DNA of 64,000 bases from the human T2T-CHM13v2.0 reference genome, Homo sapiens (GCA_009914755.4 CP068257.2:416001-480000); one strand, 5' to 3'; positions 7,437-64,000 are shown, numbered from the stretch's first letter. A program made the numbers and translations. Notes: generated from the letters alone by a model not told the origin.

Positions 7437-11261
<3,825 letters not shown>

Positions 11262-29892: not shown

Positions 29893-30245
29893 AACTGAGA
29901 TTTTCAAAGGGAATGCTTCCAGGTTTTGCCCATTCAGTATGATATTGGCTGTGGGTTTGACATAAATAGCTCTTATTATTTTGAGATACATCCCATCAAT
30001 ATCTAATTTATTGAGAGTTTTTAGCACGAAGGTTGTTGAATTTTGTCAAAGGGCTTTTCTGCATCTATTGACATAATCATGTAGTTTTTGACGTTGGTTC
30101 TGTTTGTATGATGGATTATGTGTATTGATTTGTGTATGTTGAACCAGCCTTGCATCCCAGGGATGCAGCCCATTTGATCATGGTGGATAAGCTTTTTGAT
30201 TTGCTGCTGGATTCGGTTTGGTAGTATTTTATTGAGGATTTCGCA
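29893..30245 (-). mobile_element. Internal L1 ORF2 (reverse-transcriptase region) fragment abutting the satellite array
   Basis: Minus-strand translation (ORF 30021-30386) reads ...[44 protein letters not shown]....[17 protein letters not shown]..., which is L1 ORF2p RT domain sequence. The nucleotide sequence parallels 8599-9480 of the full-length L1 in this window. It is truncated at both ends, and the 5' side (in the L1 sense) runs directly into (GGAAT)n. Confidence 0.85.
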
Positions 30246-43100: not shown

Positions 43101-46100
43101 CACTGCGTTCCACTCCACTCCATTCCATTCCATTCCAATAAATTGCAGTGCATTTCATTCCATTCCATTCCTATGAATTGCCGTGCATTTCATTCATTCC
43201 ATTCCATCCTAATCAATCCCACTCTGGTCCACTCCATTCTACTACCCTCCATTTAATGCTGCTCAATTCCATTCGACTCCATTCCACTCCATTCCGTTCC
43301 ACCCCACTCCCTTCCACTGCACTCCACTCCATTCCACTCCTCTCGATTCCACTGCACTCCACTCCACTGCACTCCTCTCCATTCCACTCTACTCCATTCC
43401 ACTCCAATCCACTCCACTCCACCTCGTTCCACTCCACTCCATTTTATGCCTCTCCAATTCATTCCATTTCACTCCACTTTGTTCCACTCCATTCCACTCT
43501 ATTCCACTCAATTCAATTCAACTCCACTCCAATCCAGTACACTCCATTCTATTAGAATCCATTTCACTCCACTTCATTCCATTTCACAGTATTGCACTCC
43601 ATTTCACTCCATTCCACTCCATTCCATTCCATTCCACTCCATTCCACTCCAATCAACTCCAGTCCACTCCACTCAAATCCATTCCATTAAACTCCATTCC
43701 ATTCCATTCCACTCCTCTCCGTTTCATTCCACTCCACTGCATTCTTTTCCACTCCATTCCTCTCCACTCCATTCCCCTCCATTCCATTCCTTTCCACTCC
43801 ACTCCACTCCAATCCACTTCACTCCATTCCACTCACCTTCATTCCTTTTCATTCCATTCCATTCCATTCCGTTCCACTCCACTCGATTCTATTCCAATGC
43901 ACTCCATTCCCCTCCATTAAATTCCATTCCGCTCAAACTCACTCCAATCCACTCCACTCCACTCCATTGCATTCTATACCATTCCATTGCAATCCAATCC
44001 ATTCCATTCCACTCTACTGCATTCATTTCCAATCCACTCCACTCCATTCCACTCCATTCAAATCCATTCCATTCAATTTCACCACATTCCATTCCCTTCC
44101 TCTCCATTTCACTCCACTCTGTTCCACTCCACTCCACTCCCCTCCATTCCACTCTACTATTCATCACTCCATTCCATTCCACTCCCCCCTTTACACTCCA
44201 ATGCTCTCCATTCCAATCCATTATATTTCACTCCATTCCACCTCACTCCACTCCACTCCATTCCATTCCATTCCAATCCACTTCAATCCACTCCGTTACA
44301 TTTCATTCCACTCCACTCAATTGAATTCCTTACCATTGTATTCCACTGCATTCCATTCCACTCCTCTCTATGCCACTGCACTCCACTCCATTCCATTCCA
44401 CTGCAATCCACTCCACTCCGTTCCACTGGACTACATTTTATTCCAGTCCAATCCATTCGACTCAATTCCATTCAACTCCAATCCATGCCACTCCAATCCA
44501 CTCCATTCCACTACACTCCATTCCATTCCATTAAAATCCTTTCCATTCCATTCCACTCCATTCCATTCCACTCCACTCCAGTCCATTCCAGTCCACTCCA
44601 GTCCATTCCATTCCACTCCATTCCAATCCATTCCATTCCACTCCACTCAAATCCCCTCCATTCCGTTCCACTATAATCCATTCTGTTCCACTCCATTCCA
44701 CTCCAATCCACTCCATTCCACTTCACTCCTTTTAATTCCACTGTACTACATTCCATTCCATTCCACTCCTCTCCTCTCCTCTCCAATTCATTCCATTCCA
44801 CTCCATTTCTTTCCACTCAACTCCAGTCCACTCTATTCCACTCCTCTCTATTCCATTCCATTCCACTCCTCTCCATTCCACCTCATTCCATTCCATTCCT
44901 CTCTACTCTATTCCATTCCATTGCACTCCACTCCCCTCAACTCCACTCCATTCCATTAAAATCCATTCCATTCCATTCCATTCCACTCCATTTCATTCCT
45001 TTCATTTCCACTCCACTCCACACCATTAATCTCTATGCCATTCCATTCCACTCCACTCCATTCCATTTACTCCACTCAGTTCGACTCCACTCCATTCCAC
45101 TGCATTGCTTTCCAATCCATTCCATTCCACTCCACACCATTCCACTCCCTTACTTTCCATACCATTCCACTCCACACCACTGCAATGCATTCCTCTCCAA
45201 TCAATTCCACTCCATTTCATTCCATTCAAACCCACTCCATTCCATTCCACTCCCCTCCATTCCATTACAATCCATTCCATTCCATTCAATTGCACAACTT
45301 TCCATTTCATTCCATTCCACTCCATTCCATTCAATTCCACAAGATACCATTAAATTCCATTAAATTCCATTCCATTCCAATCCACTCGTTTCCACTCCAC
45401 TCGTTTCCACTCCAATCCATTCAATTCCATTCCATTCCATTCCACTCCATTCCATTCCCGTCCATTCCATTCCTTTCCTTTCCATTCTATTCCACTGCAC
45501 TCCACTCCATTGTATTGCACGTCATTCCATTCCATTCCACTCCACTGCATTCCATTCCATTCCATTCCATTCAATTCCACTCCACTCTATTTCTTTCCCT
45601 CCATTCCACTGCAATCCACTTCATTCCATTACAGTCCACTCCATTCCACCCCACTCCATTCCACTCCTCTCCTTTCCACTCCACTCCACTCCAATCCACT
45701 CCATTCCACCTCACTCCACTCCATTCCATTCCATCCGACTCCATTCCATGTCAATCCTTTCCATTCCATTCCACTCCATTCCATTCCATTCCACTCCAGT
45801 CTATTCCTTACATTCCATTCCATTCTACTCCATTCCACTCTATTCCATTCAACTCCACTATATTCCATTCCATTCCATTCAACTCCACGACATTGCATTC
45901 CCCTCCACTCCACTCCACTCTACTGAATTCCATTCCACTCCATTCCATTCTGCTCCGTTCCACTCTATTCCACTCCATTGCATTCCTCTCCACTCCACAC
46001 CACTTCACTCCTCTCCACTCCACTCCCTTACATTCAATTCTATTCCATTTCTTTCCATTTTATTCCACCCCATTCCATTCCATTCCATTCCATTCAACTA

Positions 46101-49100
46101 CATTCCACGAAACGCCACCCCACTCCACTCCACTGAATTCCATTCCCGTACATTCTATTCCATTCCATTCCATTCCATTCCATTCCATTCCACTCCACTG
46201 CATTCCATTCCATTCCATTCCAGTCCGTTCCATTCCCTTCCACTCCACTCCATTCCACTCCACTTCACTCTCCTAAACTCCACTCCATTCCACTCGTCTC
46301 CACAAAATTCCACTACACTCCATTCCATTCCCCTCCAATCCATTCCATTTCACTCCACTACATTCCATTTCATTCCCTTCCATTCCATTCAATTCCACTC
46401 CATTCCACTCCACTCCACCCCATTCCACTCCACTCAATTCCTTTCCATTCCATTCTTTCCATTCCATTCCATTCCACTCCACTCCATTCCGTTCCATTAT
46501 ACTCCACTCCATTCAACTGCTCTCCACACCATTCCACTGCACTGCATTCCATTCCATTCCCTTCAATTCCTTTCCATTCTGCTCCAGTCTACTCCATTCA
46601 ACTCCAATCCATTCCACTCAACTCCAATCCTTTCTATTCCACTACAGTCGATTTCACTCCACTCCACTCCACTCCTATCCATTCCACTCCGTTCCATTTC
46701 ATTCCAGTGCACTCCATTCCATTCCACTCCACTCCATTTAATTTCTCTCCACTCCATCCAACGGCATTCGAACATATTCGACTCCATTCCACTCCACTCC
46801 ATGCCATTCCATTCCACTCCTCTCCTCTCCATTCCACCCCTCTCAATTCCATTGCATTCCAAACCATTCCACTCCATTCCATAGCATTCTTTTGCACTCC
46901 ATTCCATTCCATTCCACTCCTTTCCATTCCATTCCCTTCCTTTCCACTCTACTCAACTCTTTTACTCCACTCCGTTGCATTCAATTCCATTCCACTCCAC
47001 TCCATTCCATTCCATTCCATTCCATTCCATTCCAATCCACACCACTTCATTTCTTTCCACTCCATTGCCATCCATTCCTTGCCACTCCATTCCATTCCAC
47101 TCCACTGCATTCCTTTCTGGTCAATCCATTCCACTCCACTCTATTCCATTCCATTCCATTCGACTACATTCTATTCCACTCCTCTCCACTCCACTCCACA
47201 CCACTCCATTCCATTCCATTCCATTACACTCCACTCCATTCCATTCTACTTCAATCCATCCCATTCCATTCCACCCCATTCCATTCAATTCCATTCTTTC
47301 CACTCCACTCTACTTCTCTCCATTCCACTCCACTCCATTGCATTTCATTCCACTCCATTCCATTCCACTCCACTCAAGTTCACTGCATTCCATTCCCTTC
47401 CATTCCATTCCATTCCATTCCATTCCGTTCAAATCCACTCCATTCTATTCCACTCCAGTCCATTCCACGCCACACATATCAACTCCATTAGATTCCAATC
47501 CACTCTACTAAACTCCACCCCATTCCATTTCACTCCATTCCATTCTATTCTACTCCACTCCACTGCATTCCACGACACTCCATTACACTCCACTGCATAC
47601 GACTCCAATCCATTCCATTCCATCGCATAACATTCCACTCAACTACATTCCATTCCACTCCACTCCATTCCATTCTACTCCATTGAATTCCACTCAACTC
47701 CATTCAATTCCACTCCATTCCATTCCATTACATTCCGTTCCATTTCAGCCCATTCCATTCCCTTCCTTTCCATTCCATTGCATTCTCCTACACTACACAC
47801 CACTCTACTCCACTTCTCTCCATTACACTCCATTCAGTTCCAGTCCATTTCACTCCATTCCATTCCATTCCATTCCACTCCGCTACATTCCATTCCACTC
47901 TGCTCCATTACATTCCACTCCACACAACTACTTTCCACTCCATTCCACTCCATTCCATTCCACTCCACTCCACTCCCCCAATCCACACCACTCCACTCCA
48001 TTCCCCTAAATTCCATTCCATTGCATTCCATTGCATTCCATTGCATTCCATTGCATTCCATTCCATTCCATTCCATTCCATTTCACTTCACTCCATTGCA
48101 TTCCATTCAACTTCACTGCATTCCATTCCTTTCCATTCCAGTGCACGCCTTTCCTCTCCATTCCACTCCATTCCACACCATTCCATTCCATTCGTCTCCA
48201 TTCCCTTCCACTCCACTCCACTACATTCCATTCCACTCCGTTCCATTCCATTCCACTTCACTCCTTTCCATTCAACTCCAATGCATTCCACTTTACTCCA
48301 TTCCATAGCATTCCATTCCCATACATTCCATTCCAATCCATTCCATTCCCCTCCACTCTTCTAAATTCCACTCCAATCCATTCCACTCCACTGCAATCCA
48401 TTCCATTCCACTCCATTCTATACGTTCCAATCCATTATATCCCATCCATTGCACCCCATTCCGTTCCATTTCACTTCATTTCATACCATTCCACTCCACT
48501 CCACTCCACTTCTTTCCATTCCATTCCTAGCCATTCCACACCAATCCACTCCACTCTTCTCCATGTCATTCTGCTCCATTCCATTCCACTCCTCTCCATT
48601 CCATTCCACCCAACACTATTCCAGTCCTCTCCATTCCACTCCACCACATTCCATTCCATTCCTTTCCATTCCATTCATTTCCATTCCACTCCACTCCATT
48701 CCATTTAACTCAACTATATTTCACTGTATTCTCCTCATTCCATTCCACTCCACTCCACTCCAGTCCACTCCACTCCATTCCTCCCCTTTCCATTCCTTTC
48801 CATTCCACTCTACTCCACTGCATTCCATTCCACTCCACTCCACTCAACTCCATTCGAGTCCATTCCAATACATTCCATTCCACTCCACTCCATTCTACTC
48901 CACTAGACTCCTTTCCACTCCCGTCCACTCCTTTCCACTCCATTTCACTCCATTCCACTCTATTCCACTACACTTCATTCCACTCCAATCCATTCCATTC
49001 CATTACAATCCAATCCACTCGGTTACATTCCACTTCACTCCATTCCAATCCACTCGATTCCCTTCAACTCCACCCCATTCCATTCCACTCCTATGCATTC

Positions 49101-52100
49101 TTTCCATTAAACTCCATTCCACTCCATTCCATTCCAATCCCCTCCACTATATTCCATTCAGTTCCACCCCACTCCACTATACTCCATTCATTTCTAATCC
49201 ATTCCACTCCATTCCATTCCATTCTGCTCCACTTAGTTCTATTCCACTCCACTCCATTCCATTCCACTCCATTCCATTCCACTACACTCCATTCCATTAC
49301 ACTGAACTCTATTCCACTCCACTCTGTTCCACTCCACTCCATTGCTCTCCAATCCATTCCATTCCATTGCTTCCCACTCCATTACATTCCACTCCACTCC
49401 ACTTCATTCCATTACACTCCACTCCATTCCACTCCATTCCATTACACTCCACTCCAATCAAATCCATTTCATCCCATTCCTTTGCATTCCTTTCTACTCC
49501 ACTCCACTCCATTCCACTCCACTCCACTCCATTCCACTCCACTCCATTATTTGCACTCGATTCCATTCCAATCTACTCTATTCTACTCCATTCCAATACA
49601 TTGCATTCCACTCCACTCCATTCCATTCCATTCCATTCCATTCCATTCAATTCCACTTCAATCCAGTGCACTCCAATCCATTCCACTCCATTCCACTCCA
49701 TTCTATTCCATTCCACTGCATTCCACTCTACTCTATCTCACTCCACTCCTTTCCATTCCACTCCATTCCATTCCAGTCCACTCCACTCCTCTCCACTCAA
49801 CTCCATTCCAATCCATTCCATTCCATTCCACTCGATTCCATTCCAGTCCACTCCATTCTATTCCATTCCATTCCAATACACTCCACTCCATTCCACTCCA
49901 CTCCATTCCATTTCACTCCACTCCTTTATATTCCATTCCACCCCGTTCCATTCCATTCCACTGCATTCCACTCCATTCCACTGCACTGCAGTCCATTCCA
50001 CTTCAGTCCATTCCATTCCACTATTCCCCACTCCACTCCACTCCACTCCATTCCATTCCACTCCACTCCCATCTACTCCACTGCATTTCATTCAAGTCCA
50101 CTCCATTTTTTTCCATTCCACTCCAATCCACTCCACTCCTTTCCAATCCACTCTATTCCACTACATTCCATTCCATTGCTTTCCCCTCAATTCTTGTCCA
50201 CTTCACTCAATTCCACTCCAGTCCATTCCATTCCACTCCAATCCACTCCACTCCTTTCCAATCCACTCTATTCCACTACATTCCATTCCATTGCTTTCCC
50301 CTCAATTCTTGTCCACTTCACTCAATTCCAATCCAGTCCATTCCATTCCACTCTACTCCACTTCATTCCATTTCATTCCACTCCACTCCACTCCACTCTA
50401 ATCCACTCCATTCCATTCCATTTCATTCCACTCCACTCCACTCTAATCCATTCCACTCCATTCCTTTCCAATCCACTCAATTCCATTCCACTCCACTTCA
50501 TTCCATTCCACTCCATTACTCTCCACTCCACTTCATTCCACTCCACTCTTTTCCATTCCACTCCACTCCATTCCGTTTCTTTCCCCTCCATTCCATTCCA
50601 CTCCACTCCATTCCATTCCATTCCATTCCTTTCCTCTCCACTCTAATCCATTCCAATACACTGCATTTCACTCCACTTCCTTCCATTCCATTCCTTTCCA
50701 CTCCATTCCATTCCACTGCAATCCTTTCCATTCCACTCGTCTCCATTCCATTCCACTCGTCTCTATTCCCCTCCTTTCCATTTCACTCCACTGTACTCCA
50801 TTCTATTCCAATCGTCTTCATTCCAGTCCACTCCAGTCTATTCCACTGCTCTCCATCACTCTCCAATGCTTTCCATTCCATTCCATTCCATTCCATTCCA
50901 TTCCATTCCATTCCATTCGACTCCACTCCTTTTGACTGCATTCCCCTACATTCCATTCCATTCTACTCCACTAAATTGTACTCCACTCCACTCCATTCCA
51001 TTCCTTTCATGGTCATTCCATTCCATTCAATTGCATTCCTTTCCACAATACTCCATTCTACTCATCTCCACTCGGTTCCACTCCACTGCATTCCATTCCA
51101 CTCAACTCCATTCCACTCCACTACATCCCATTCAATTCCACTCCCTTCCATTGCACTCCACTACATTCCATTCCACTGCTCTCCGTTTAACTCCATTCCA
51201 TTCTAGGCAACACAACTCCATTCCACTCCACTCCACTTCATTCTTTTTCATTACATTCTATCCAACCCACGCCATTCCATTCCATTCCATTCCATTTCAC
51301 TACACTCCATTCCACTCTACTCCTCTCCACTCTATTCCACTCCTTTAATCTCCATTTCATTCCATTTCACCTCATACCACTCCACTCCGCAACATTCCAC
51401 TCCACTCCACTCCAATCCAGTCCACCCCATTCCATTCCACACCGCTCCAGTCCACTTCACTCCATTCCACCTCATTTCACTCCACTGCATTGCATTCCAT
51501 ACAATTCTATTTGACTTCCACTCCACTCCACTCCACTCCATTACGTTCCACCAAATTGCATTCCATTCCATGCCACTCTATTACATTCAATTCCACTCCA
51601 TTCCATTCCACTACACTCCCATCCACTACATTCCACTCCATTCCATTCCCCTCCCTTCCACTCCGCTCTACTCCCCTCCACTTCACTTCGTTCCATTCCA
51701 TTCCTTGCCATTCCATTCCATTCCGTTTTATTCCATTCCACTCCAATCCATTCCAATTAACTCCACTCCGTTCCACTCCACTCGATGCCATTCCACTCCA
51801 CTCGATTCCATTTAATTCCACTCCACACCACTCCCCTTCATTTCACTCCACTCTTCTCCACTCTTATACACTCCACCCCAATCCATCTCACTCCGTTAGT
51901 TTCCATTCCAATCCAATCCACTACATTCTTGTCCACTCGATTCCATTCCACTCCATTCCATTCCATTACATTTCATTTCATTGCACTCCATTCCATTTCA
52001 TTCCATTGCATTCCATTCCACCCCACTCCATTCCACTCCATTGCATTCCACTCTACTACATTCCATACCATTTCATTCCACTCCATTACATTACATTCCA

Positions 52101-52883
52101 CTCCATTCCATTCCACTGCACTCCACTCCATTCCATTCCATTGTATTCCATTCAAATCCACTCCACTCCATTATTTTCCATTCCATTCCACTCCATTCCA
52201 TTCTACTCTACCCCACTCCACTCAATTCCATTCCATTCCACTCCTTCTATTCCATTCCACTGCATTCCACTCCACTCCATTCCATTCCACTCCACTCCAC
52301 TCCATTCCACTCCATTCCACCCCAATCCTCTCCCCTCCATTCCTTTCCACTGCATCCCAATCCACTCCATTCCATTACACTCCAATCCATTCCATTACAC
52401 TTCACGCCAATCCATTCCACCCCACTCCATTGCATTCCATTCTATTCCACTCTACTCCATTCTGTTCAATTCCATTTCACTCCACTTCAATCCACTCCAC
52501 TTCACTCCATTCCACTCCATTCTATTCCATTCGATTGCATTCCATTCCACTGCAATCCTCTCCACTCCACTCCATGTCTTTCTACTCCGTTCCATTCCTT
52601 TCGATTCCATTGCATTCCATTTGATTCAACTCCATTCCATTGTACTTCATTCCATTCCACTCCACACCATTTAATTCCACTTCATCCATCCGCTTTCCGA
52701 CACATTCCACTCCACTCCAGTCCACTCCCATCCACTCCATTCCATTCCTCCCCACTCCACTCCATTCCACTCCATTCCACTCTTTTCCATTCCACTGTAT
52801 TCCCTTCCAGTCCACTCTGCTCCAATCGACTCCATTTTATTCCAATCCACTCCATTCCTTTCCACTCCATCTGCCTCACTATA
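40151..52883. repeat. HSat3 sub-array B: diverged (ATTCC)n with no Alu-derived inserts
   Basis: No 'gtcacccaggctggagtgcagtgg'-type segment occurs after ~40130. The pentamer is degenerate, with many CATTC/CACTC/CAATC variants and short irregular motifs. Confidence 0.8.
50150..50375. repeat. Local ~113-bp tandem duplication within HSat3 sub-array B
   Basis: 'ctttccaatccactctattccactacattccattccattgctttcccctcaattcttgtccacttcactcaattcca.tccagtccattccattccactc' occurs twice back-to-back (50150-50262 and 50263-50375). Confidence 0.7.
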
Positions 52884-52891
52884 ACTATTCT

Positions 52892-54796
52892 CTAGGATCT
52901 GATCACAGGGTGCTTTGTGACATATCCCTGCAATGATCACCGAGGTGATATACCACTTGCCAAGGCTCTGCCTACAGGGGCATTGCAATGTATCTCTGCA
53001 CTGATCACCTAGGTCTTGTAACTCTTTTCTAGGATCTGCCTACAGGGTGCCTTGTGACGTATCCCAGCAAGGATTACCCAGGTGATGTACCTCTCATCAA
53101 GGCTCTGCCTACAGCCAAATTGCGATGTATCTCTGCACTGATCACCGAGGTCATGTAAGTTTTGTCTAGGCTCTGCCTACGATGGCATTGTGACATATCT
53201 CTGCACTAATCACCCAAGTGATGTAACTCTTGTCTAGGATCTGCCTAAATTAACTTTGTGACATAACCCTGTACTGATCATCCAGGTGATGGGGCTTTTG
53301 TATGGGCTCTGCCTAAGGGGGCATTGTGACATATTTCTGCATTGAGCACCCAGGTGGCGAACTCTTCTCTTGCATCTGCCTATGGGGGCATTGTGACAAA
53401 TCTCTGCACTGATCACCCAGGTGATGTAACTGTTGTGTAACCTCTGCCTACAGGGGAATTGTGAGAGATCTCGCCACTGATGAACCAAGTGATGTAACCA
53501 TTGTCTAGGCTTTGCGTACAGGGGTCTTTGTGACATTCCTTTGCACTGATCACCCAGGTGATGTAACACATCTAAGTTCGGCCTAAAGGAGCTTTGTGAC
53601 ATATCTTTGCACAGATCACTTAGGTGATGTAACACTTTTATAAACACTGCCTACAGGGAATTTTGACAAATCTCTGCACTGATCACCTAGGTGATGTAAC
53701 TCTTGTCTACCCTCTGTCCAACGGGGCATTGTGAAATATCTCTGCACTGATGACCCAGGTGATTCAACTCTTGACTAGGATCTGCCTACAGAGGTTATTG
53801 TGAAATATCTCTGCACTGATAAACTAGGTGGTGTAACCCTTGTCCAAGTTCTGCCTACAGGGGCGTTTTCACATATCCCTGAACTGATGACAAAGGTGAT
53901 GTAACTCTTGCCTAGGCTTTGCCTACAGGGGACATTGGACATATATCTGCACTGATCACCCAGGTGATGCAACTCTTGCCTAGCCTTTGCCTACAGGGGA
54001 CATTGTGACATATCTCTGCACTGATCTCCCAGGTGCTGTAACTTTAGTCTAGGCTCTGGCTACACGGCATTGTGACATATCACTGCACTGATCACCCAGG
54101 TGATATAACACTTGACTAGGCTCTGCCTACAATGGTCTTGTGACATATCTCTGCACTGATCACACAGGTGATATAACTCTTCTCTAGGATCTGCCTACAG
54201 GATGCTTTGTGACATATCCCTGCACTGATCACCCAGGTGATCTAACTCTGGTCTAAGCTCCGCCTAAAGGGGCATTGTGACAGATCTCTGCACTGATCAC
54301 TCAGGTGATGTAACGATTGTCTAGGCTCTGATTAAAGGGGCCTTGTCACATATCTCTGCACTGATCACCCAGGTGATGTAACTCTTGTATAGCCTCTGCT
54401 TCCACGGCATATTGTGACATATCTATGCACTGATCACCTTAGTGATGTAACAGCTGTGTAGGCTCGGCCTACTCGGGAATCTTGCCATATCTCTGCACTG
54501 TTAACCGAGGCGATTGAACTCTTGTCTAGGCTGTGCCCACAGGGGGATTGAGACATATCTCTGCACTGATCCCGAGGTGATCCAACTCTTGCCTGGTCTC
54601 TGCCTACTGGGGACATTTTGACATATCTCTGCACTGATCTCCCAGGTGCTATAACTTTAGTCTAGGCTCTGGCTACACGGCATTGTGACATATGACTGCA
54701 CTGATTACCCAGGCGATATAACTCTTGTCTCGGCTCTGCCTACAATGGTCTTGTGACATATCTCTGCACTGATCACCTAGGTGATATATCTCTTCT
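52892..54796. repeat. Beta satellite higher-order repeat copy 1 (1905 bp, 28 monomers, type I: has monomer M', lacks K2)
   Basis: Phase is set by the landmark 'ctaggatctga.cacagggtgctttgtgacatatccctgcaatgatcacc'. Monomer order is A B C D E F G H I J K L M N O P Q L' M'. Confidence 0.7.
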
Positions 54797-56768
54797 CTAG
54801 GATCTGACCACAGGGTGCTTTGTTACATATCCCTGTAATGATCACCCAGGGGTATACCACTTGCCAAATCTCTGCCTACAGGGACATTGTAATATATCTC
54901 TGCACTGATCACCTAGGTCTTGTAACTCTTTTCTAGGATCTGCCTACAGGGTGCTTTGTGACGTATCCCAGCAAGGATTACCCAGGTGTTGTACCTCTCA
55001 TCAAGGCTCTGCCTACAGGCACATTGCGATGTATCTCTGCACTGATCACCGAGGTCATGTAAGTTTTGTCTAGGCTCTGCCTGCGATGGCATTGTGACAT
55101 ATCTCTGCACTAATCATCCAAGTGATGTAACTCTTGTCTAGGATCTGCCTAAATTAACTTTGTGACATAACCCAGTACTGATCATCCAGGTGATGGGGCT
55201 TTTGTCTAGACTCTGCCTAAGGGGGCATTGTGACATATTTCTGCATTGAGCACCCAGGTGACGAACTCTTCTCTCGCATCTACCTATGGGGGCATTGTGA
55301 CAAATCTCTGCACTGATCACCCAGGTGTCGTAAATGTTGTGTAACCTCTGCCTACAGGGGAATTGTGAGAGATCTCGCCACTGATCACCCAAGTGATGTA
55401 ACCATTGTCTAGGCTTTGCGTACAGGAGGCTTTGTGACATACCTTTGCACTGATCACCCAGGTGATGTAACACATCTAAGTTCGGCCTAAAGGAGCTTTG
55501 TGACATATCTCTGCACTGATCACTTAGGTGATGTAACACTTTTATAAGCACTGCCTACAGGGAATTTTGACAAATCTGTACACTGATCACCTAGGTGATG
55601 TAACTCTTGTCTACCCTCTGTCCAACGGGGCATTGTGAAATATCTCTGCACTGATCACCCAGGTGATTCAACTCTTGACTAGGATCTGCCTACAGAGGTT
55701 ATTGTGAAATATCTCTGCACTGATAAACTAGGTGGTGTAACCCTTGTCCAAGTTCTGCCTACAGGGGCGTTTTCACATATCCCTGAACTGATGACAAAGG
55801 TGATGTAACTCTTGCCTAGGCTTTGCCTACAGGGGACATTGGACATATATCTGCACTGATCACCCAGGTGATGCAACTCTTGCCTAGGCTTTGCCTACAG
55901 GGGACATTGTGACATATCTCTTCAATGATCACCCATGTGATGCAACTCTTGCCTAGGCTTTGCCTACAGGGGACATTGTGACATATCTCTGCACTGATTT
56001 CCCAGGTGCTGTAACTTTAGGCTAGGCTCTGGCTACACGGCATTGTGACATATCACTGCAATGATCAACCAGGTGATATAACCCCTGTAGAGGCTCTGCC
56101 TACAGGGGGCTTGTGACAAATGTCTGCACGGATCACCCAGGTGATATAGCTCTTCTCTAGGATCTGCCTATAGGGTGCTTTGTGACATATCCCTGCACTG
56201 ATCACCCAGGTGATCTAACTCTGGTCTAAGCTCTTCCTAAAGGGGCCTTGTGACAGATCTCTGCACTGATCACTCAGGTGATGTAACTTTTGTCTAGGCT
56301 CTGCTTCAAGAGGCCTTGTCACAAATCTCTGCACTGATCACCCAGGTGATGTAACTCTTGTCTAGGCTCTGCTTCCAGGGCATATTGTGACATATCTATG
56401 CACTGATCACCTTAGTGATGTAACACTTGTGTAGGCTCGGCCTACAGGGGAATCTTGACATATCTCTGCACTGTTAACCGAGGTGATTTAACTCTTCTCT
56501 AGGCTGTGCCCAAAGGGGTTTGAGACATATCTCTGCACTGATCCCGAGGTGATCCAACTCTTGCCTGGTCTCTGCCTACTGGGGACATTGTGACATATCT
56601 CTGCACTGATCTCCCTGGTGCTGCAACTATAGTCTAGGCTCTGGCTACACGACATTGTGACATATCAGTGCACTGATCACATAGGTGATATAACTCTTGT
56701 CTAGGCTCTGCCTACAATGGTCTTGTGACTTATCTCTGCACTGATCACCCAGGTGATATAACTATTCT
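54797..56768. repeat. Beta satellite higher-order repeat copy 2 (1972 bp, 29 monomers: has both K2 and M')
   Basis: The same landmark at 54797 and 56769 gives a 1972-bp spacing. An extra monomer 'cttcaatgatcacccatgtgatgcaactcttgcctaggctttgcctacaggggacattgtgacatatct' (K2) lies at ~55905-55972 and is absent from copy 1. Confidence 0.7.
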
Positions 56769-58195
56769 CTAGGATCTGACCACAGGGTGCTTTGTGACAT
56801 ATCCCTGCAATGATCACCCAGGTGATATACCACTTGCCAATGCTCTGCCTACAGGGGCATTGCAATGTATCTCAGCACTGATCACCTAGGTCTTGTAACT
56901 GTTTTCTAGGATCTGCCTACAGGGTGCTTTGTGACGTATCCCAGCAAGGATTACCCAGGTGATGTACCGCTCATCAAGGCTCTGCCTACAGGCACATTGC
57001 AATGTATCTCTGCACTGATCACCTAGGTCATGTAACATTTGTCTAGTCTCTGCCTACGATGGCATTGTGACATATTTCTGCACTAATCATCCAAGTGATG
57101 TAACTCTTGTCTAGGATCTGCCTACACTAACTTTGTGACATAATCCTGTACAGATCATCCAGGTGATGGGGTTTTTGTCTAGGCTCTGCCTAAGGGGGCA
57201 TTGTGACAAATTCCTGCATTGATCACCCAGGTGGCGAAATCTTCCCTTGGATCTGCCTATGGGGGCATTGTGACAAATCTCTGCACTGATCACCCAGGTG
57301 CCGTAACAGTTGTGTAACCTCTGCCTACAGGGGAATTGTGAGAGATCTCGCCACTGATCACCCAAGTGATGTAACCATTGACTAGGCTTTGCGAACAGGG
57401 GGTTAGTGACATACCTTTGCACTGATCACCCAGGTGATGTAACACATCTAAGTTCGGCCTAAAGGAGCTTTGTGACATATCTCTGCACTGATCAACCAGG
57501 TGATATAACCCCTGTATAGGCTCTGCCTACAGGGGGCTTGTGACATATGTCTGCACGGATCACCCAGGTGATATAGCTCTTCTCTAGGATCTGCCTATAG
57601 GGTGCTTTGTGACATATCCCTGCACTGATCTCCCAGGTGATCTAACTCTGGTCTAAGCTCTTCCTAAAGGGGCATTGTGACAGATCTCTGCACTGATCAC
57701 TCAGGTGATGTAACTGTTGTCTAGGCTCTGCTTCAAGGGGCCTTGTCACAAATCTCTGCACTGATCACCCAGGTGATGTAACTATTGTCTAGGCTCTGCT
57801 TCCAGGGCATATTGTGACATATCTATGCACTGTTCACCTTAGTGATGTAACACTTGTGTAGGCTCGGCCTACAGGGGAATCTTGACATATATCTACACTG
57901 TTAACCGAGGTGATTTAACTCTTCTCTAGGCTGTGCCCACAGGGGGATTGAGACATATCTCTGCACTGATCCCGAGGTGATCCAACTCTTACTGGTCTCT
58001 GCCTACTGGGGACATTGTGACATATCTCTGCACTGATCTCCCTTGTGCTGCAACTTTAGTCTAGGCTCTGGCTACACGACATTGTGACATAGCAGTGCAC
58101 TGATCACATAGGTGATATAACTCTTGTCTAGGCTCCGCCTACAATGGTCTTGTGACATATCTCTGCACTGATCACCCAGGTGATATAACTATTCT
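56769..58195. repeat. Beta satellite higher-order repeat copy 3 (1427 bp, 21 monomers: internal deletion of about 7 consecutive monomers G through L)
   Basis: The order A-B-C-D-E-F is intact, with 'aacacatctaagttcggcc' at ~57440. It then jumps directly to 'ctgatcaaccaggtgatataacccctgtatagg' and on to N-O-P-Q-L'-M'. The H-I-J block (the 65-aa ORF landmark) is missing. Confidence 0.7.
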
Positions 58196-60101
58196 CTAGG
58201 ATCTGACCACAGGGTCCTTTGTGACATATCCCTGCAATGATCACCCAGGTGATATACCACTTGCCAATGCTCTGCCTACAGGGGCATTGCAATGTATCTC
58301 AGCACTGATCACCTAGGTCTTGTAACTCTTTTCTAGGATCTGCCTACAGGGTGCTTTGTGACGTATCCCAGCAAGGATTACCCAGGTGATGTACCGCTCA
58401 TCAAGGCTCTGCCTACAGGCACATTGCGATGTATCTCTGCACTGATCACCTAGGTCATGTAACCTTTGTCTAGTCTCTGCCTACGATGGCATTGTGACAT
58501 ATTTCTGCACTAATCATCCAAGTGATGTAACTCTTGTCTAGGATCTGCTTACACTAACTTTGTGACATAATCCTGTACAGATCATCCAGGTGATGGGGTT
58601 TTTGTCTAGGCTCTGCCTAAGGGGGCATTGTGACATATTTCTGCATTGATCACCCAGGTGGCGAACTCTTCTCTTGGATCTGCCTATGGGGGCATTGTGA
58701 CAAATCTCTGCACTGATCACCCAGGTGTCGTAACTGTTGTGTAACCTCTGCCTACAGGGGAATTGTGAGAGATCTCGCCACTGATCACCCAAGTGATGTA
58801 ACCATTGTCTAGGCTTTGCGTACAGGGGGCTTTGTGACATACCTTTGCACTGATCACCCAGGTGATGTAACACATCTAAGTTCGGCCTAAAGGAGCTTTG
58901 TGACATATCTCTGCATTGATCACTTAGGTGATGTAACACTTTTATAATCACTGCCTACAGGGAATTTTGACAAATCTCTGCACTGATCACCTAGGTGATG
59001 TAACTCTTGTCTACCCTCTGTCCAACGGGGCATTGTGAAATGTCTCTGCACTGATCACCCAGGTGACTCAACTCTTGACTAGGAACTGCCTACAGAGGTT
59101 ATTGTGAAATATCTCTGCACTGATAAACTAGGTGGTGTAACCCTTGTCCAAGCTGTGCCTACAGGGGCGTTTCCACATATCCCTGAACTGATGACAAAGG
59201 TTATGTAACTCTTGCCTAGGCTTTGCCTACAGGGAACATTGGACATATATCTGCACTGATCACCTAGGTGATGCAACTCTTGCCTAGGCTTTGCCTACAG
59301 GGGACATTGTGACATATCTCTTCAATGATCACTCATCTGATGCATCTCTTGCCTAGGCTTTGCGTACAGGGGACATTGTGACATATCTCTGCACTGATCT
59401 CCCAGGTGCTGTAACTTTAGTCTAGGCTCTGGCTACACGGTATTGTGACATATCACTGTACTGATCAACCAGGTGATATAACTCTTGTATAGGCTCTGCC
59501 TACAGGGTGATTGTGACCTACCTCTGCACTGATCACCCAGGTGATATAACTCTTCTCTAGGATCTGCCTACAGGGTACTTTGTGACATATCCCTGCACTG
59601 ATCACCCAGGTGATCTAACTCTGGTCTAAGCTCTGCCTAAAGGGGCATTGTGACAGATCTCTGCACTGATCCCTCTGGTGATGTAAGTATTGTCTAGGCT
59701 CTGCTTCAAGGGGCCTTGTCACATATCTCTGCACTGATCACCCAGGTGATGTAACTCTTGTCTAGGCTCTGCTTCCAGGGCATATTGTGACATATCTATG
59801 CACTGATCACCTTAGTGATGTAACACTTTGGTAGGCTCGGCCTACAGGGGAATCTTGACATATCTTTGCACTGTTAACGGAGGTGATTTAACTCTTGTCT
59901 AGGCTGTGCCCACAGGGGGATTGAGACATATCTCTGCACTGATCCCGAGGTGATACAACTCTTGCCTGGTCTCTGCCTACTGTGGACATTGTGACATATC
60001 TCTGCACTGATCTCCCAGGTGCTGTAACTTTAGTCTATGCTCCGGCTACACGGCATTGTAACATATCACTACACTGATCACCCAGGCGATATAACTCTTC
60101 T
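58196..60101. repeat. Beta satellite higher-order repeat copy 4 (1906 bp, 28 monomers, type II: has K2, lacks M')
   Basis: The landmark sits at 58196 and 60102. K2 is present at ~59320. Monomer L' is followed directly by monomer A at 60102. Confidence 0.7.
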
Positions 60102-62007
60102 CTAGGATCTGACCACAGGGTGCTTTGTGACATATCCCTGCAATGATCACCCAGGTGATATACCACTTGCCAAGGCTCTGCCTACAGGGGCATTGCAATG
60201 TATCTCTGCACTGATCACCTAGGTCTTGTAGCTATTTTCTAGGATCTGCCTACAGGGTGCTTTGTGACGTGTCCCAGCAAGGATTACCCAGGTAATGTAC
60301 CTCTCATCAAGGCTCTGCCTACAGGCACATTGTGATGTATCTCTGCACTGATCACCTAGGTCATGTAACTTTTTTCTAGGCTCTACCTACGATGGCATTG
60401 TGACATATCTCTGCACTAATCATCCAAGTGATGTAACACTTGTCTAGGATGTGCCTAAATTATCTTTTTGACATAACCCTGTACTGATCATCCAGGTGAT
60501 GGAGCTTTTGTCTAGGCTCTGCCTAAGGGGGCATTGTGACATATTTCTGCATTGATCACCCAGGTGGCGAACTCTTCTCTCCGATCTGCCTATGGGGGCA
60601 TTGTGAGAAATCTCTGCACTGATCACCCAGGTGATGTAATTGTTGTGTTACCTCTGCCTACAGGTTAATTGTGAGAGATCTCGTCACTGATTACCCAAGT
60701 GATGTAACCATTGTCTAGGCTTTGCGTACAGGGGGCTTTGTGACATACCTTTGCACTGATCACCCTGGTGATGTAACACATCAAAGTTCGGCCTAAAGGA
60801 GCTTTGTGACATATCTCTGCACTGATCACTTAGGTGATGTAACACTTTTATAATCACTGCCTACAGGGAATTTTGACAAATCTCTGCACTGATCACCTAG
60901 GTGATGTAACTCTTGTCTAACCTCTGTCCAACGGGGCATTGTGAAATATCTCTGCACTGATCACCCAGGTGATTCAACTCTTGACTAGGAACTGCCTACA
61001 GAGGTTATTGTGAAATACCTCTGCACTGATAAACTAGGTCGGGTAACCCTTGTCCAAGCTCTGCCTTCAGGGGCGTTTCCACATATCCCTGAACTGATGA
61101 CAAAAGTGATGTAACCCTTGCCTAGGCTTTGCCTACAGGGAACATTGGACATATATCTGCACTGATCACCCAGGTGATGCAACTCTTGCCTAGGCTTTGC
61201 CTACAGGGAACATTGGACATATATCTGCACTGATCACCCAGGTGATGCAACTCTTGCCTAGGCTTTGCCTACAGGGGACATTGTGACATATCTCTTCAAT
61301 GATCACTCATGTGATGCATCTCTTGCCTAGGCTTTGCCTACAGGCGACATTGTGACATATCTCTGCACTGATCTCCCAGGTGCTGTAACTTTAGTCTAGG
61401 CTCTGGCTACAAGGCATTGTGACCTACCTCTGCACTGATCACCCAGGTGTTATAACTCTTCTCTAGGATCTGCCTACAGGGTACTTTGTGACATATCCCT
61501 GCACTGATCACCCAGGTGATCTAACTCTGGTCTAAGCTCTGCCTAAAGGGGCATTGTGACAGATCTCTGCACTGATCACTCTGGTGATGTAAGTATTGTC
61601 TAGGCTCTGCTTCAAGGGGCCTTGTCACATATCTCTGCACTGATCACCCAGGTGATGTAACTCTTGTCTAGGCTCTGCTTCCAGGGCATATTGTGACATA
61701 TCTATGCACTGATCACCTTAGTGATTGAACACTTTGGTAGGCTCGGCCTACAGGGGAATCTTGACATATCTCTGCACTGTTAACCGAGGTGATTTAACTC
61801 TTGTCTAGGCTTTGCCCACAGGGGGATTGAGACATATCTCTGCACTGATCCCGAGGTGATACAACTCTTGCCTGGTCACTGCCTACTGTGGACATTGTGA
61901 CATATCTCTGCACTGATCTCCCAGGTGCTGTAACTTTTGTCTAGGCTCTGGCTACACGGCATTGTGACATATCACTGCACTGATCACCCAGGCGATATAA
62001 CTCTTCT
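60102..62007. repeat. Beta satellite higher-order repeat copy 5 (1906 bp, type II variant: K duplicated, one post-L monomer lost)
   Basis: 'cagggaacattggacatatatctgcactgatcacccaggtgatgcaactcttgcctaggctttgcctac' occurs twice in tandem (61140-61275). After L, the monomer 'atcactgtactgatcaaccaggtgatataactcttgtatagg', which is present in copies 4 and 6, is absent. Confidence 0.6.
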
Positions 62008-63913
62008 CTAGGATCTGACCACAGGGTGCTTTGTGACATATCCCTGCAATGATCACCCAGGTGATATACCACTTGCCAAGGCTCTGCCTACAGGGGCATT
62101 GCAATGTATCTCTGCACTGATCACCTAGGTCTTGTAGCTATTTTCTAAGATCTGCCTACAGGGTGCTTTGTGACGTGTCCCAGCAAGGATTACCCAGGTG
62201 ATGTACCTCTCATCAAGGCTCTGCCTACAGGCACATTGTGATGTATCTCTGCACTGATCACCTAGGTCATGTAACTTTTTTCTAGGCTCTACCTACGATG
62301 GCATTGTGACATATCTCTGCACTAATCATCCAAGTGATGTAACTCTTGTCTAGGATGTGCCGAAATTAACTTTTTGACATAACCCTGTACTGATCATCCA
62401 GGTGATGGAGCTTTTGTCTAGGCTCTGCCTAAGGGGGCATTGTGACATATTTCTGCATTGATCACCCAGGTGGCGAACTCTTCTCTCGGATCTGCCTATG
62501 GGGGCATTTTGAGAAATCTCTGCACTGATCACCCAGGTGATGTAACTGTTGTGTAACCTCTGCCTACAGGGGAATTGTGAGAGATCTCGTCACTGATTAC
62601 CCAAGTGATGTAACCGTTGTCTAGGCTTTGCATACAGGGGGCTTTGTGACATACCTTTGCACTGATCACCCAGGTGATGTAACACATCTAAGTTCGGCCT
62701 AAAGGAGCTTTGTGACATATCTCTGCACTGATCGCTTAGGTGATGTAACACTTTTATAATCACTGCCTACAGGGAATTTTGACAAATCTCTGCACTGATC
62801 ACCTAGGTGATGTAACTCCTGTCTACCCTCTGTCCAACGGGGCATTGTGAAATACCTCTGCACTGATCACCCAGGTGATTCAACTCTTGACTAGGAACTG
62901 GCTACAGAGGTTATTGTGAAATATCTCTGCGCTGATAAACTAGGTGGTGTAAACCTTGTCAAAGCTCTGCCTACAGGGGCGTTTCGACATATCCCTGAAA
63001 TGATGACAAAGGTGATGTAACTCTTGCCTATGCTTTGCCTACAGGGAACATTGGACATATATCTGCACTGATCACCCAGGTGATGCAACTCTTGCCTAGG
63101 CTTTGAAAACAGGGGACATCGTAACATATCTCTTCAATGATCACTCATGTGATGCATCTCTTGCCTAGGCTTTACCTACAGGGGACATTGTGAAATATCT
63201 CTGCACTGATCTCCCAGGTGCTGTAACTTTAGTCTAGGCTCTGGCTACACGACATTGTGACATATCACTGCACTGATCAACCAGGTGATATAACTCTTGT
63301 ATAGGCTCTGCCTACAGGGGGATTGTGACCTACGACTGCACTGATCACCCAGGTGATATAACTCTTCTCTAGGATCTGCCTACAAGGTACTTTGTGACAT
63401 ATCCCTGCACTGATCACCCAGGTGATCTAACTCTGGTCTAAGCTCTGCCTAAAGGGGCATTGTGACAGATCTCTGCACTGATCACTCTGGTGATGTAAGT
63501 ATTTTCTAGGCTCGGCTTCAAGGGGCCTTGTCACATACCTCTGCACTGATCACCCAGGTGATGTAACTCTTGTCTAGGCTCTGCTTCCAGGGCATATTGT
63601 GACATATCTATGCACTGATCACCTTAGTGATGTAACACTTTGGTAGGCTCGGCCTACAGGGGAATCTTGACATATCTCTGCAGTTTTAACCGAGGTGATT
63701 GAACTCTTGTCTAGGCTGTGCCCACAGGGGGATTGAGACATATCTCTGCACTGATCCCGAGGTGATACAACTCTTGCCTGGTATCTGCCTACTGTGGACA
63801 TTGGGACATATCTCTGCACTGATCTCCCAGGTGCTGTAACTTTAGTCTAGGCTCTGGCTACACGGCATTGTGACATATCACTGCACTGATCACCCAGGCG
63901 ATATAACTCTTCT
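62008..63913. repeat. Beta satellite higher-order repeat copy 6 (1906 bp, type II, same monomer order as copy 4)
   Basis: The landmark sits at 62008 and 63914. J-K-K2-L-X order matches copy 4. Confidence 0.7.
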
Positions 63914-64000
63914 CTAGGATCTGACCACAGGGTGCTTTGTGACATATCCCTGCAATGATCACCCAGGTGATATACCACTTGCCAAGGCTCTGCCTACAGG
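63914..64000. repeat. Start of beta satellite higher-order repeat copy 7 (truncated by the window end)
   Basis: Landmark monomer A at 63914. The array clearly continues beyond the window. Confidence 0.7.

What the first reader, a model, noticed from the sequence alone, without database searches (positions are those of the whole stretch)
52884..64000. Beta satellite higher-order repeat with copy-specific monomer indels: 28-mers of two types, a 29-mer apparent recombinant, and a 21-mer deletion variant
Landmark monomer A recurs at 52892, 54797, 56769, 58196, 60102, 62008 and 63914, giving spacings of 1905, 1972, 1427, 1906, 1906 and 1906 bp. Copies 1-3 carry monomer M' before A. Copies 4-6 lack M' but carry an extra K2 monomer after K. 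Copy 2 carries both (29 monomers) and so looks like an unequal-crossover recombinant between the two types. Copy 3 has lost seven or so consecutive monomers (G through L). Copy 5 has a tandem K duplication that compensates for a lost post-L monomer. Copy-to-copy identity is about 96-100% (the 65-aa ORFs of copies 1 and 2 are identical), against much lower monomer-to-monomer identity. This is a compact, readable record of unequal exchange in a satellite higher-order repeat. The 28-monomer (~1.9-kb) size is a useful discriminator between beta-satellite chromosome subfamilies.
Basis: seen in the sequence. Interest (0 to 1): 0.5.

Follow-up and report, generated by a model that had tools for sequence, protein, structure and literature searches.

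The report
Beta-satellite repeat array edge, whole-monomer variants
This is the edge of an ordinary human beta-satellite array, most likely on the tip of an acrocentric short arm. Its 1.9-kb repeat copies differ by gains and losses of whole 68-bp units that left hybrid "scar" units, a textbook record of out-of-register exchange and not a new kind of element.

Summary
The structural observation holds. The 68-bp array at 52882-64000 follows a 22.6-kb (CATTC)n block. It splits into 163 monomers of 66-69 bp that form six higher-order copies of 28, 29, 21, 28, 28 and 28 monomers (1905, 1972, 1427, 1906, 1906, 1906 bp). Small indels add at most 2 bp per copy, so the length differences are whole monomers. 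One number is wrong: copy-to-copy identity is 92.7-96.6%, not 96-100%.

Every indel junction is a single-switch hybrid monomer, which is the signature of monomer-register exchange.

Copy 2, the 29-mer, groups with copy 1 on both sides of its extra monomer. It therefore looks like the older arrangement, from which both 28-mer forms lost one monomer, and not like a recombinant of them. Copy 3, the 21-mer, is a chimera: its 5' part is sister to copy 4 and its 3' part is sister to copy 2 (Fisher p=2e-6). One 1427-bp tandem duplication across the copy 2/copy 4 boundary explains this better than a deletion.

The flank architecture matches the distal short arms of chr14/15/21/22 in the T2T-CHM13 satellite table. 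The HOR size therefore marks a subfamily, not a chromosome. This is a known kind of sequence and of low novelty.

The parts
30247..52870 (.). HSat3-type (CATTC)n block that abuts the beta-satellite array. It starts inside a truncated L1 ORF2 fragment.
   Evidence: TRF period 5, 4480 copies. GC skew is about -0.65 to -0.9. An L1-like ORF ends near 30240. The 22.6-kb length matches hsat3_15_1, hsat3_21_1 and hsat3_22_1 (all A4) in the CHM13 table.
52871..52891 (+). Junction remnant. It holds the last 12 nt (TATAACTATTCT) of an S-type terminal monomer, just before the first full copy.
   Evidence: Sequence read; 10-nt partial monomer. The tail equals the tail of the S monomers of copies 2 and 3.
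52892..54796 (+). HOR copy 1, 28 monomers (1905 bp). It lacks 'a' and keeps the terminal S. Its internal R-S is of the terminal type.
54797..56768 (+). HOR copy 2, 29 monomers (1972 bp). It has both 'a' and the terminal S and is the likely older arrangement.
56769..58195 (+). HOR copy 3, 21 monomers (1427 bp). It is a chimera: the 5' part (A-J) is sister to copy 4 and the 3' part (b to S) is sister to copy 2.
   Evidence: In the 5' part, 9 sites show the pattern 34|1256 and none show 23|1456; in the 3' part, 13 sites show 23|1456 and none show 34|1256. Fisher p=2e-6.
58196..60101 (+). HOR copy 4, 28 monomers (1906 bp), canonical type: 'a' present, terminal S fused away.
60102..62007 (+). HOR copy 5, 28 monomers (1906 bp). 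A P duplication (+1) is offset by an R/e fusion (-1).
62008..63913 (+). HOR copy 6, 28 monomers (1906 bp), canonical type.
63914..64000 (+). Start of copy 7 (monomer A plus 18 nt). The array runs off the window.
55884..55952 (+). Extra monomer 'a' in copy 2, a Q-5'/P-3' hybrid, which is a duplication scar. The same monomer is at 59284-59352, 61258-61326 and 63096-63164.
   Evidence: Diagnostic columns 27 and 35 are Q-type; columns 48, 57, 60, 65 and 67 are P-type. There is a single switch in all four copies.
57448..57515 (+). Hybrid monomer 'd' of copy 3. The K 5' part is joined to the R 3' part and carries copy 2's private AACCCCTGT tail.
   Evidence: 9 K-type sites (columns 4-35) are followed by 5 R-type sites (columns 48-67). 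Sequences.
61122..61257 (+). Tandem duplication of monomer P in copy 5, two identical 68-bp units.
   Evidence: P equals P2.
61396..61462 (+). R-5'/e-3' hybrid monomer in copy 5, a one-monomer deletion scar.
   Evidence: R-type at columns 1, 11 and 21; e-type at columns 30, 33, 48 and 67.
54729..54796 (+). It is also at 56701-56768 (copy 2) and 58128-58195 (copy 3).
60035..60101 (+). Terminal monomer of copy 4. It is R-type except for the last diagnostic site, which is S-type, consistent with an R/S fusion. The same monomer is at 61941-62007 and 63847-63913.
   Evidence: 6 R-type sites then 1 S-type site. The hybrid call rests on a single nucleotide.
54049..54183 (+). Internal R-S pair of copy 1, carrying the variants of the terminal R-S pair (conversion-like, or a separate HOR variant).
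   Evidence: All 4 diagnostic sites in S and the 1 in R are terminal-type. The local order a-Q-R-S-T also occurs in independent contigs L002, L005 and L013.
53775..53972 (-). 65-codon open frame. It and its twin at 55679-55876 are by-products of the repeat, not genes.
   Evidence: The translations are identical. They lie on columns N-P, where copies 1 and 2 have 0 differences.

Best explanation
The region is the first 11 kb of a human beta-satellite (68-bp, Sau3A-type) array, where it abuts an HSat3 block. Its most likely location is the telomere-side edge of the large beta-satellite/LSau composite array on the distal short arm of an acrocentric chromosome (chr15, 21, 22 or 14 type).

The array is built from a roughly 1.9-kb higher-order repeat. 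The homogeneous form is a 28-mer of 1906 bp (copies 4-6). The three copies nearest the edge are older, more diverged structural variants.

All length variation comes from exchanges that are out of register at the higher-order level but in register at the monomer level. Candidate processes are unequal sister-chromatid or homolog exchange, single-strand annealing, or replication template switching. They act between different monomers at short identical stretches in the conserved core of the monomer. Each event left a hybrid monomer.

Inferred history:
1. An old P/Q exchange created the extra monomer 'a' and so a 29-mer like copy 2.
2. An R/S fusion removed the terminal S in the lineage of copies 4-6, giving the canonical 28-mer.
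3. Copy 1 lost 'a' separately.
4. A 1427-bp tandem duplication, with its junction between K of copy 4 and R of copy 2, created copy 3.
5. Copy 5 gained a P and lost one monomer by an R/e fusion.

Shown: the monomer strings, the hybrid monomers and the chimerism of copy 3. Inferred: the order and direction of events, the molecular pathway and the chromosomal location. The sequence has no indication of a coding or RNA function.
For: Array and HOR:
- Period 68; the 1906-bp k-mer periodicity; 163 monomers of 66-69 bp; the monomer strings.
- Small indels total at most 2 bp per copy.
- 137 of 163 monomers carry GATC. GC is 47% and CpG observed/expected is 0.18.

Exchange scars are single-switch hybrids:
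- d = K(9 sites)/R(5 sites).
- a = Q(2)/P(5), in four copies.
- c5.20 = R(3)/e(4).
- The terminal monomer of copies 4-6 = R(6)/S(1).
- P equals P2 in copy 5.

Chimerism of copy 3:
- 34|1256 occurs 9 times, only in columns B-F. 23|1456 occurs 13 times, only from column s to R2. Fisher p=2e-6.
- Copy 3 differs from copy 4 at 15 of 680 positions in A-J, and from copy 2 at 20 of 680 in s-S2. Other copy pairs differ by 5-7%.

Copy 2 is not a recombinant:
- 12|456 sites lie in N, O and P, and 123|456 sites run from the 's' column through R2.
- N-P are identical in copies 1 and 2.
- Copy 2's 'a' keeps the P-like bases where copies 4-6 share two derived changes.

Location:
- The left flank is L1 plus Alu.
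- The CHM13 v1.0 satellite table lists a non-satellite segment of more than 100 kb, then hsat3(A4), then bsat(LSAU-BSAT composite) on four chromosomes. The hsat3 lengths are 22,648 bp (chr15), 22,637 (chr21), 22,596 (chr22) and 23,134 (chr14). The window's block is 22,624 bp.
- Nurk et al. describe this shared HSat3/BSat layout of the distal acrocentric arms (PMC9186530).

Independent samples:
- Metagenome contig L008 matches window 51471-53040 at 98.7% without gaps.
- Contaminant contigs match the copies at 95-99% and show the canonical ...PaQReT...ZR-A order.
Against: - The window holds only six copies at one edge of an array that continues beyond it, so the direction of events rests on few informative sites.
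- The R/S fusion is supported by one nucleotide.
- Copy 1's lack of 'a' could be ancestral if 'a' spread by conversion.
- The one-step origin of copy 3 cannot be separated from a two-step route. That route is an in-register whole-HOR duplication with a crossover between K and R, followed by an 8-monomer deletion that removed the crossover point.
- The chromosomal placement rests on matching array lengths in a published table, not on an alignment. No LSau element lies inside the window.
- The short-read contigs are collapsed, consensus-like paths and cannot confirm long-range order.
- Assembly error cannot be excluded for the identical P duplication.
Confidence: 0.8

Rival explanations
1. Two 28-mer types exist, and copy 2 (29-mer) arose by crossover between them. 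Copy 3 is a full copy that later lost 7-8 monomers by internal deletion.
For: Copy 2 carries both distinguishing monomers. The K/R hybrid monomer is what an internal K-to-R deletion would also leave.
Against: - Copy 2 shares its variants with copy 1 on both sides of 'a', and no site groups it with copies 4-6.
- Copy 2's 'a' is basal to the 'a' of copies 4-6.
- The a-less type is a single copy.
- Copy 3's two halves have different sister copies, which a simple internal deletion does not explain without an extra earlier event.
Confidence: 0.15
2. Two-step origin of copy 3. An in-register, whole-HOR unequal exchange between copy 2 and copy 4 first made a full-length chimeric 29-mer. An 8-monomer K-to-R deletion then removed the crossover point.
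For: It predicts the same chimerism and the same K/R hybrid as the one-step model. In-register HOR exchange is the commonest event in satellite arrays (established knowledge).
Against: It needs two events, and the first crossover must fall inside the later-deleted 8 of 29 monomers (about 28% by chance). The similar divergence of both halves from their sisters (2.2% and 2.9%) fits either model.
Confidence: 0.3
3. The variant copies are assembly artefacts (collapses or expansions) in a hard-to-assemble satellite.
For: The two P monomers in copy 5 are identical. Short-read contigs of this repeat are visibly collapsed.
Against: - The duplicated segments have since diverged by 2-3%, and 'a' differs among copies by 1-7 positions. 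Misassembly would give identical copies.
- The hybrid monomers are clean, and the monomer register is kept throughout.
- The HSat3/BSat junction recurs in independent samples.
Confidence: 0.05
4. The locus is the distal Yq12 beta-satellite block next to PAR2, a 14.5-kb HOR array beside CATTC repeats.
For: Warburton 2008 lists a 14.5-kb BSR HOR at Yq12 (PMC2588610). A later paper describes about 10 kb of CATTC/CACTC repeats beside it (PMC6591651).
Against: Both published flanking primers are absent from the 64-kb window, even allowing 3 mismatches. The CATTC block here is 22.6 kb, and it matches the acrocentric entries to within about 30 bp.
Confidence: 0.05

Closest known systems
Human beta satellite (Sau3A / BSR family) higher-order repeats, acrocentric subfamily (Waye & Willard 1989; Greig & Willard 1992, as cited in PMC8125562 and the Altemose preprint)
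   Same: 68-bp monomers, a GATC site in most monomers, multimeric higher-order units, and a position next to HSat3 on acrocentric short arms.
   Different: Nothing categorical. The HOR lengths of the classical clones (pB3, pB4) could not be retrieved here, so identity with a named subfamily is not shown.
LSAU-BSAT composite arrays of T2T-CHM13 (bsat_15_1, bsat_21_1, bsat_22_1, bsat_14_1)
   Same: The order of flanks and the length of the HSat3 block match the annotation table to within about 30 bp for three chromosomes.
   Different: No LSau/D4Z4-like element occurs in the 11 kb seen. GC is a flat 46-48%. The window shows only a pure beta-satellite edge.
Alpha-satellite HOR structural variants (StVs) generated by unequal crossing-over
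   Same: Whole-monomer gains and losses, hybrid monomers at the junctions, homogeneous canonical copies, and more diverged variants at array edges.
   Different: A different satellite family and monomer size (68 vs 171 bp). The exchanges here are between monomers only about 70-75% identical, at homology runs of about 6-13 nt. That points to annealing or template-switch routes as much as to classical crossover.

Membership tests
Beta satellite (Sau3A/BSR) DNA | Tandem array of ~68-bp monomers | tested here: met
   TRF period 68, 163.4 copies. 163 monomers of 66-69 bp.
Beta satellite (Sau3A/BSR) DNA | Sau3AI (GATC) site in the monomer | tested here: met
   137 of 163 monomers contain GATC.
Beta satellite (Sau3A/BSR) DNA | Sequence match to the reference BSR consensus | not testable with these tools
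   No repeat library was available. Indirect support comes from the locus layout matching 'bsat' entries of the CHM13 table.
Beta satellite (Sau3A/BSR) DNA | Monomers organised in multimeric higher-order repeats | tested here: met
   28-monomer, 1906-bp unit. Within-class edit distance is 1-5 and between-class about 17.
HOR structural variants by unequal (out-of-register) exchange | Length differences are integer numbers of monomers | tested here: met
   Copies have 28/29/21/28/28/28 monomers, and net small indels are 0 to -2 bp.
HOR structural variants by unequal (out-of-register) exchange | Hybrid monomer with a single parental switch at each junction | tested here: met
   d, a and c5.20 are clear. 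The R/S fusion rests on one site.
LSAU-BSAT composite array (acrocentric distal short arm) | Flank order: non-satellite, then ~22.6-kb HSat3 (A4), then beta satellite | tested here: met
   Window block 30247-52870 is 22,624 bp. The table gives 22,648, 22,637 and 22,596 bp. This is a length match only, not an alignment.
LSAU-BSAT composite array (acrocentric distal short arm) | LSau/D4Z4-like elements interspersed with beta satellite | tested here: not met
   None occurs in 52882-64000: period 68 is uninterrupted and GC is flat. The array continues beyond the window, so this is uninformative for the array as a whole.
Yq12 distal beta-satellite block | Published flanking primer sites present | tested here: not met
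   0 matches with up to 3 mismatches for both primers.

The most novel reading that the evidence does not exclude
The three edge copies may preserve an ordered series of intermediates (a 29-mer, then two independent 28-mers, plus a duplication-born 21-mer). If so, the birth of the canonical acrocentric beta-satellite HOR could be reconstructed and dated across chromosomes and apes. The odd substitution pattern (transition/transversion ratio about 0.6; variants twofold enriched for bases found in other monomer classes) may reflect pervasive short conversion between non-orthologous monomers.
Probability: 0.25. Interest if true: 0.35.

Novelty: already known. Interest (0 to 1): 0.2.

Why it matters
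The finding is mainly a clean teaching example. It shows at nucleotide resolution that beta-satellite HOR variants arise by monomer-register exchanges that leave hybrid monomers. It also shows that array-edge copies keep older forms. And a "deletion variant" can turn out to be the junction product of a duplication once the flanking variants are read.

In practice, the hybrid monomers (K/R at 57448-57515; R/e at 61396-61462) are short unique markers inside a repeat that is otherwise shared among four or five chromosomes. They could help anchor reads or trace exchange between acrocentric short arms. The finding does not change what is known about satellite biology.

Tried and rejected
- Rfam scan of the whole window at gathering thresholds: no hit. 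No RNA-family evidence; the open frames lie within the repeat and vary between copies.
- Yq12/PAR2 beta-satellite hypothesis: the primers are absent. Dropped.
- Exact search of metagenome contigs for the K/R junction 36-mer: no hit. The 21-mer could therefore not be confirmed in independent data.
- Metagenome and 'bacterial genome' contigs carrying the landmark monomer: I decomposed them hoping for independent haplotypes. The longer ones are collapsed, consensus-like or chimeric paths, for example L013 and L010. I used only local adjacencies and the junction match of L008.
- Classical papers: Waye & Willard 1989 (PMC297815) and the Science version of Altemose 2022 are not held. HOR sizes of the classical clones pB3 and pB4 therefore remain unchecked.
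- Protein-level tools were not used, because nothing here suggests a gene.
- Conversion toward the family consensus as the cause of the low transition share: only 18 of 200 variants fit. Not sufficient.

Full report
**What is there.** The window is primate DNA. Positions 1-30246 are L1 ORF2 fragments and Alu elements. Positions 30247-52870 are a (CATTC)n HSat3-type block with strong strand skew. From 52882 to the window end lies an uninterrupted 68-bp tandem array (TRF: 163.4 copies, 75% matches). Rfam finds nothing in the window.

**Checking the observation.** The landmark monomer is at all seven stated coordinates. Among exact 20-mers, the nearest repeat lies 1906 bp away for 1618 of them, 1427 bp for 731, 1904 bp for 586 and 1973 bp for 418. 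Only 105 have their nearest repeat at 68 bp. The higher-order period is therefore far stronger than the monomer period.

- I cut the array with a wrap-around alignment to the consensus, phased at CTAGG. This gave 163 full monomers of 66-69 bp.
- Pairwise edit distances are bimodal, 0-7 and about 9-29.
- Average-linkage clustering gives these strings:
  - c1 ABCDEFGHIJKLMNOPQRSTUVWXYZRS (28 monomers, 1905 bp)
  - c2 ABCDEFGHIJKLMNOPaQRbTUVWXYZRS (29, 1972 bp)
  - c3 ABCDEcGHIJdbTUVWXYZRS (21, 1427 bp)
  - c4 ABCDEcGHIJKLMNOPaQReTUVWXYZf (28, 1906 bp)
  - c5 ABCDEFGHIJKLMNOPPaQeTUVWXYZR (28, 1906 bp)
  - c6 ABCDEFGHIJKLMNOPaQReTUVWXYZR (28, 1906 bp)
- Monomers off the modal length of their class add only 0 to -2 bp per copy.
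- The two 65-aa ORFs are identical. They lie on monomers N-P, where copies 1 and 2 do not differ.
- One number is wrong. Copy-to-copy identity over shared monomers is 92.7-96.6%, not 96-100%. Between-class monomer identity averages 75%.

**Junction anatomy.** I aligned each odd monomer with its candidate parents and kept only the columns where the two parent classes are fixed and different.

- Monomer d of copy 3 (57448-57515) shows 9 K-type sites (columns 4-35) followed by 5 R-type sites (columns 48-67). It carries the private AACCCCTGT tail of copy 2's R.
- The extra monomer 'a' is Q-type at columns 27 and 35 and P-type at columns 48-67 in all four copies. This is the Q-5'/P-3' hybrid expected from a one-monomer duplication by P/Q exchange.
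- Copy 5's monomer at 61396-61462 is R-type at columns 1, 11 and 21 and e-type at columns 30-67. This is a one-monomer deletion scar.
- Copy 5's two P monomers are identical.
- The last monomer of copies 4-6 is R-type at six sites and S-type at the final site. This fits an R/S fusion that removed the terminal S, but it rests on one nucleotide.
- The switches fall in or beside the most conserved part of the monomer (TTGTGAC...CTGCACTGATCA).
- The partner monomers are only about 70-75% identical, and the shared runs at the switches are about 6-13 nt. 'Unequal exchange' here may therefore be single-strand annealing or template switching as much as classical crossover. That last point is inference.

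**Relationships among copies.** Parsimony-informative sites sort sharply by position.

- In B-F the patterns are 34|1256 (9 sites) and 56|1234 (7 of its 10 sites, which run from B to I). The pattern 12|3456 or 12|456 occurs at 8 sites between D and P.
- From column s to R2 the patterns are 23|1456 (13 sites) and 123|456 (11 sites).
- No 34 site lies in the 3' part and no 23 site lies in the 5' part (Fisher p=2e-6).
- Copy 3 is thus a chimera. A-J is sister to copy 4 (15 differences in 680 bp), and b-S is sister to copy 2 (20 in 680), against 5-7% between other copies.
- Copy 3 lies between copies 2 and 4. A single tandem duplication of the 1427 bp running from the R breakpoint in copy 2 to the K breakpoint in copy 4 would create exactly this unit, with a K-5'/R-3' junction. 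I prefer this one-step gain (about 0.6).
- The alternative is a two-step route: a whole-HOR duplication whose crossover point was then removed by an 8-monomer deletion. It cannot be excluded.

**Copy 2.** If copy 2 were a crossover product of the two 28-mer types, its 'a'-bearing 5' part should resemble copies 4-6.

- Instead, the four informative sites just upstream of 'a' (in N, O and P) group it with copy 1, and N-P are identical in the two copies.
- Downstream it again groups with copy 1 (123|456).
- Its 'a' retains the P-like bases where copies 4-6 share two derived changes.
- The simplest reading is that the 29-mer is the older arrangement. Copies 4-6 then lost the terminal S once, and copy 1 lost 'a' separately. 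The a-less form is a single copy in this window.
- In independent short-read contigs, P-a-Q is the only adjacency seen across that point. This is weak evidence because those contigs are collapsed.
- Copy 1's internal R-S pair carries the variants of the terminal R-S pair. The same a-Q-R-S-T order appears in other contigs, so it may be a standing HOR variant and not a private conversion.

**Where it comes from.** The distal Yq12 beta-satellite block was considered and dropped, because both published flanking primers are absent. The CHM13 v1.0 satellite table in the Altemose preprint supplement has four matching entries. Each lists a non-satellite segment of more than 100 kb, then hsat3(A4), then a bsat (LSAU-BSAT composite) array.

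| Chromosome | hsat3(A4) length | Following bsat array |
|---|---|---|
| chr15 | 22,648 bp | 743 kb |
| chr21 | 22,637 bp | 648 kb |
| chr22 | 22,596 bp | 1.9 Mb |
| chr14 | 23,134 bp | 202 kb |

- The window's HSat3 block is 22,624 bp.
- All four loci lie distal to the rDNA. Nurk et al. describe this shared ACRO/HSat3/BSat/HSat1 layout, with more than 90% identity between acrocentric chromosomes (PMC9186530).
- I therefore place the window at the telomere-side edge of that array, with about 0.75 confidence. The chromosome is unresolved. This is a length match, not an alignment.
- It also means the 28-mer marks a shared acrocentric subfamily at best, not a single chromosome.
- Contaminant human contigs in metagenomes and in 'bacterial' genome records match at 95-99%. 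One of them (L008) spans the HSat3/beta-satellite junction at 98.7% without gaps. The junction is therefore real and present in other samples.

**Comparison and verdict.** Beta-satellite HORs have been known since 1989, and new ones were reported from T2T-CHM13 (Altemose preprint). Whole-monomer HOR variants with hybrid junctions are standard in alpha satellite. This is a well-preserved example of a known process in an annotated satellite. Interest is low (0.2) and the kind is already known.

Noticed in passing
window 30247-39800: The proximal ~9.5 kb of the HSat3 block is not pure pentamer. Alu-antisense-like fragments of ~45-95 bp (e.g. 30482-30533, 32542-32638, 34774-34870, 38485-38546) recur every few hundred bp. 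With k=24, nearest-repeat distances peak at 664, 669 and 115 bp. No such fragments were found in the remaining ~13 kb. TRF also reports a 123-bp repeat at 38431-38718.
   Followed up: partly
window 52892-63913 (orthologous monomers of copies 1-6): The substitution pattern among copies is unusual. Only 77 of 200 variants are transitions (ratio ~0.6), and only 3 are CpG transitions. CpG observed/expected is 0.18. Variant bases are about twofold enriched for bases present at the same position in another monomer class (transversions OR 2.2, p=7e-5; transitions OR 1.75, p=0.04). Possible causes are short conversion between non-orthologous monomers or site-specific bias. Unexplained.
   Followed up: partly
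loci L016-L023 (genome contigs): Eight records filed as bacterial or archaeal genomes contain this human beta-satellite HOR at 94-99% identity, i.e. human contamination. They are Corallococcus sicarius NZ_RAWG01000794.1, Actinomadura cremea BMRF01000120.1, Acidovorax sp. ST3, Streptosporangium violaceochromogenes, Campylobacter concisus, Streptomyces sp. DH5, a Desulfobacteraceae MAG and a Woesearchaeota MAG.
   Followed up: partly
window 53980-54183 vs 54593-54796 (and the same columns in the other copies): The HOR contains an older internal duplication. The triplet Q-R-s (positions 17-19/20) resembles the terminal triplet Z-R-S: Q and Z differ by a mean edit distance of 7.7, and R recurs as the same class. 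This internal paralogy offers extra substrates for misaligned exchange.
   Followed up: partly
window 30021-30241: The HSat3 block starts directly inside a truncated L1 ORF2 fragment on the minus strand (ORF 30021..30386; ~88-90% direct repeat of the L1 at 9300-9641). The satellite therefore abuts a broken LINE and not unique sequence.
   Followed up: no
locus L005 (5852 bp) and L001, L003: Some contaminant contigs join canonical HOR monomers to stretches of beta-satellite monomers that match none of the 32 classes in the window (strings of '?'). This suggests neighbouring, more diverged beta-satellite domains elsewhere in the arrays, or chimeric assembly.
   Followed up: no
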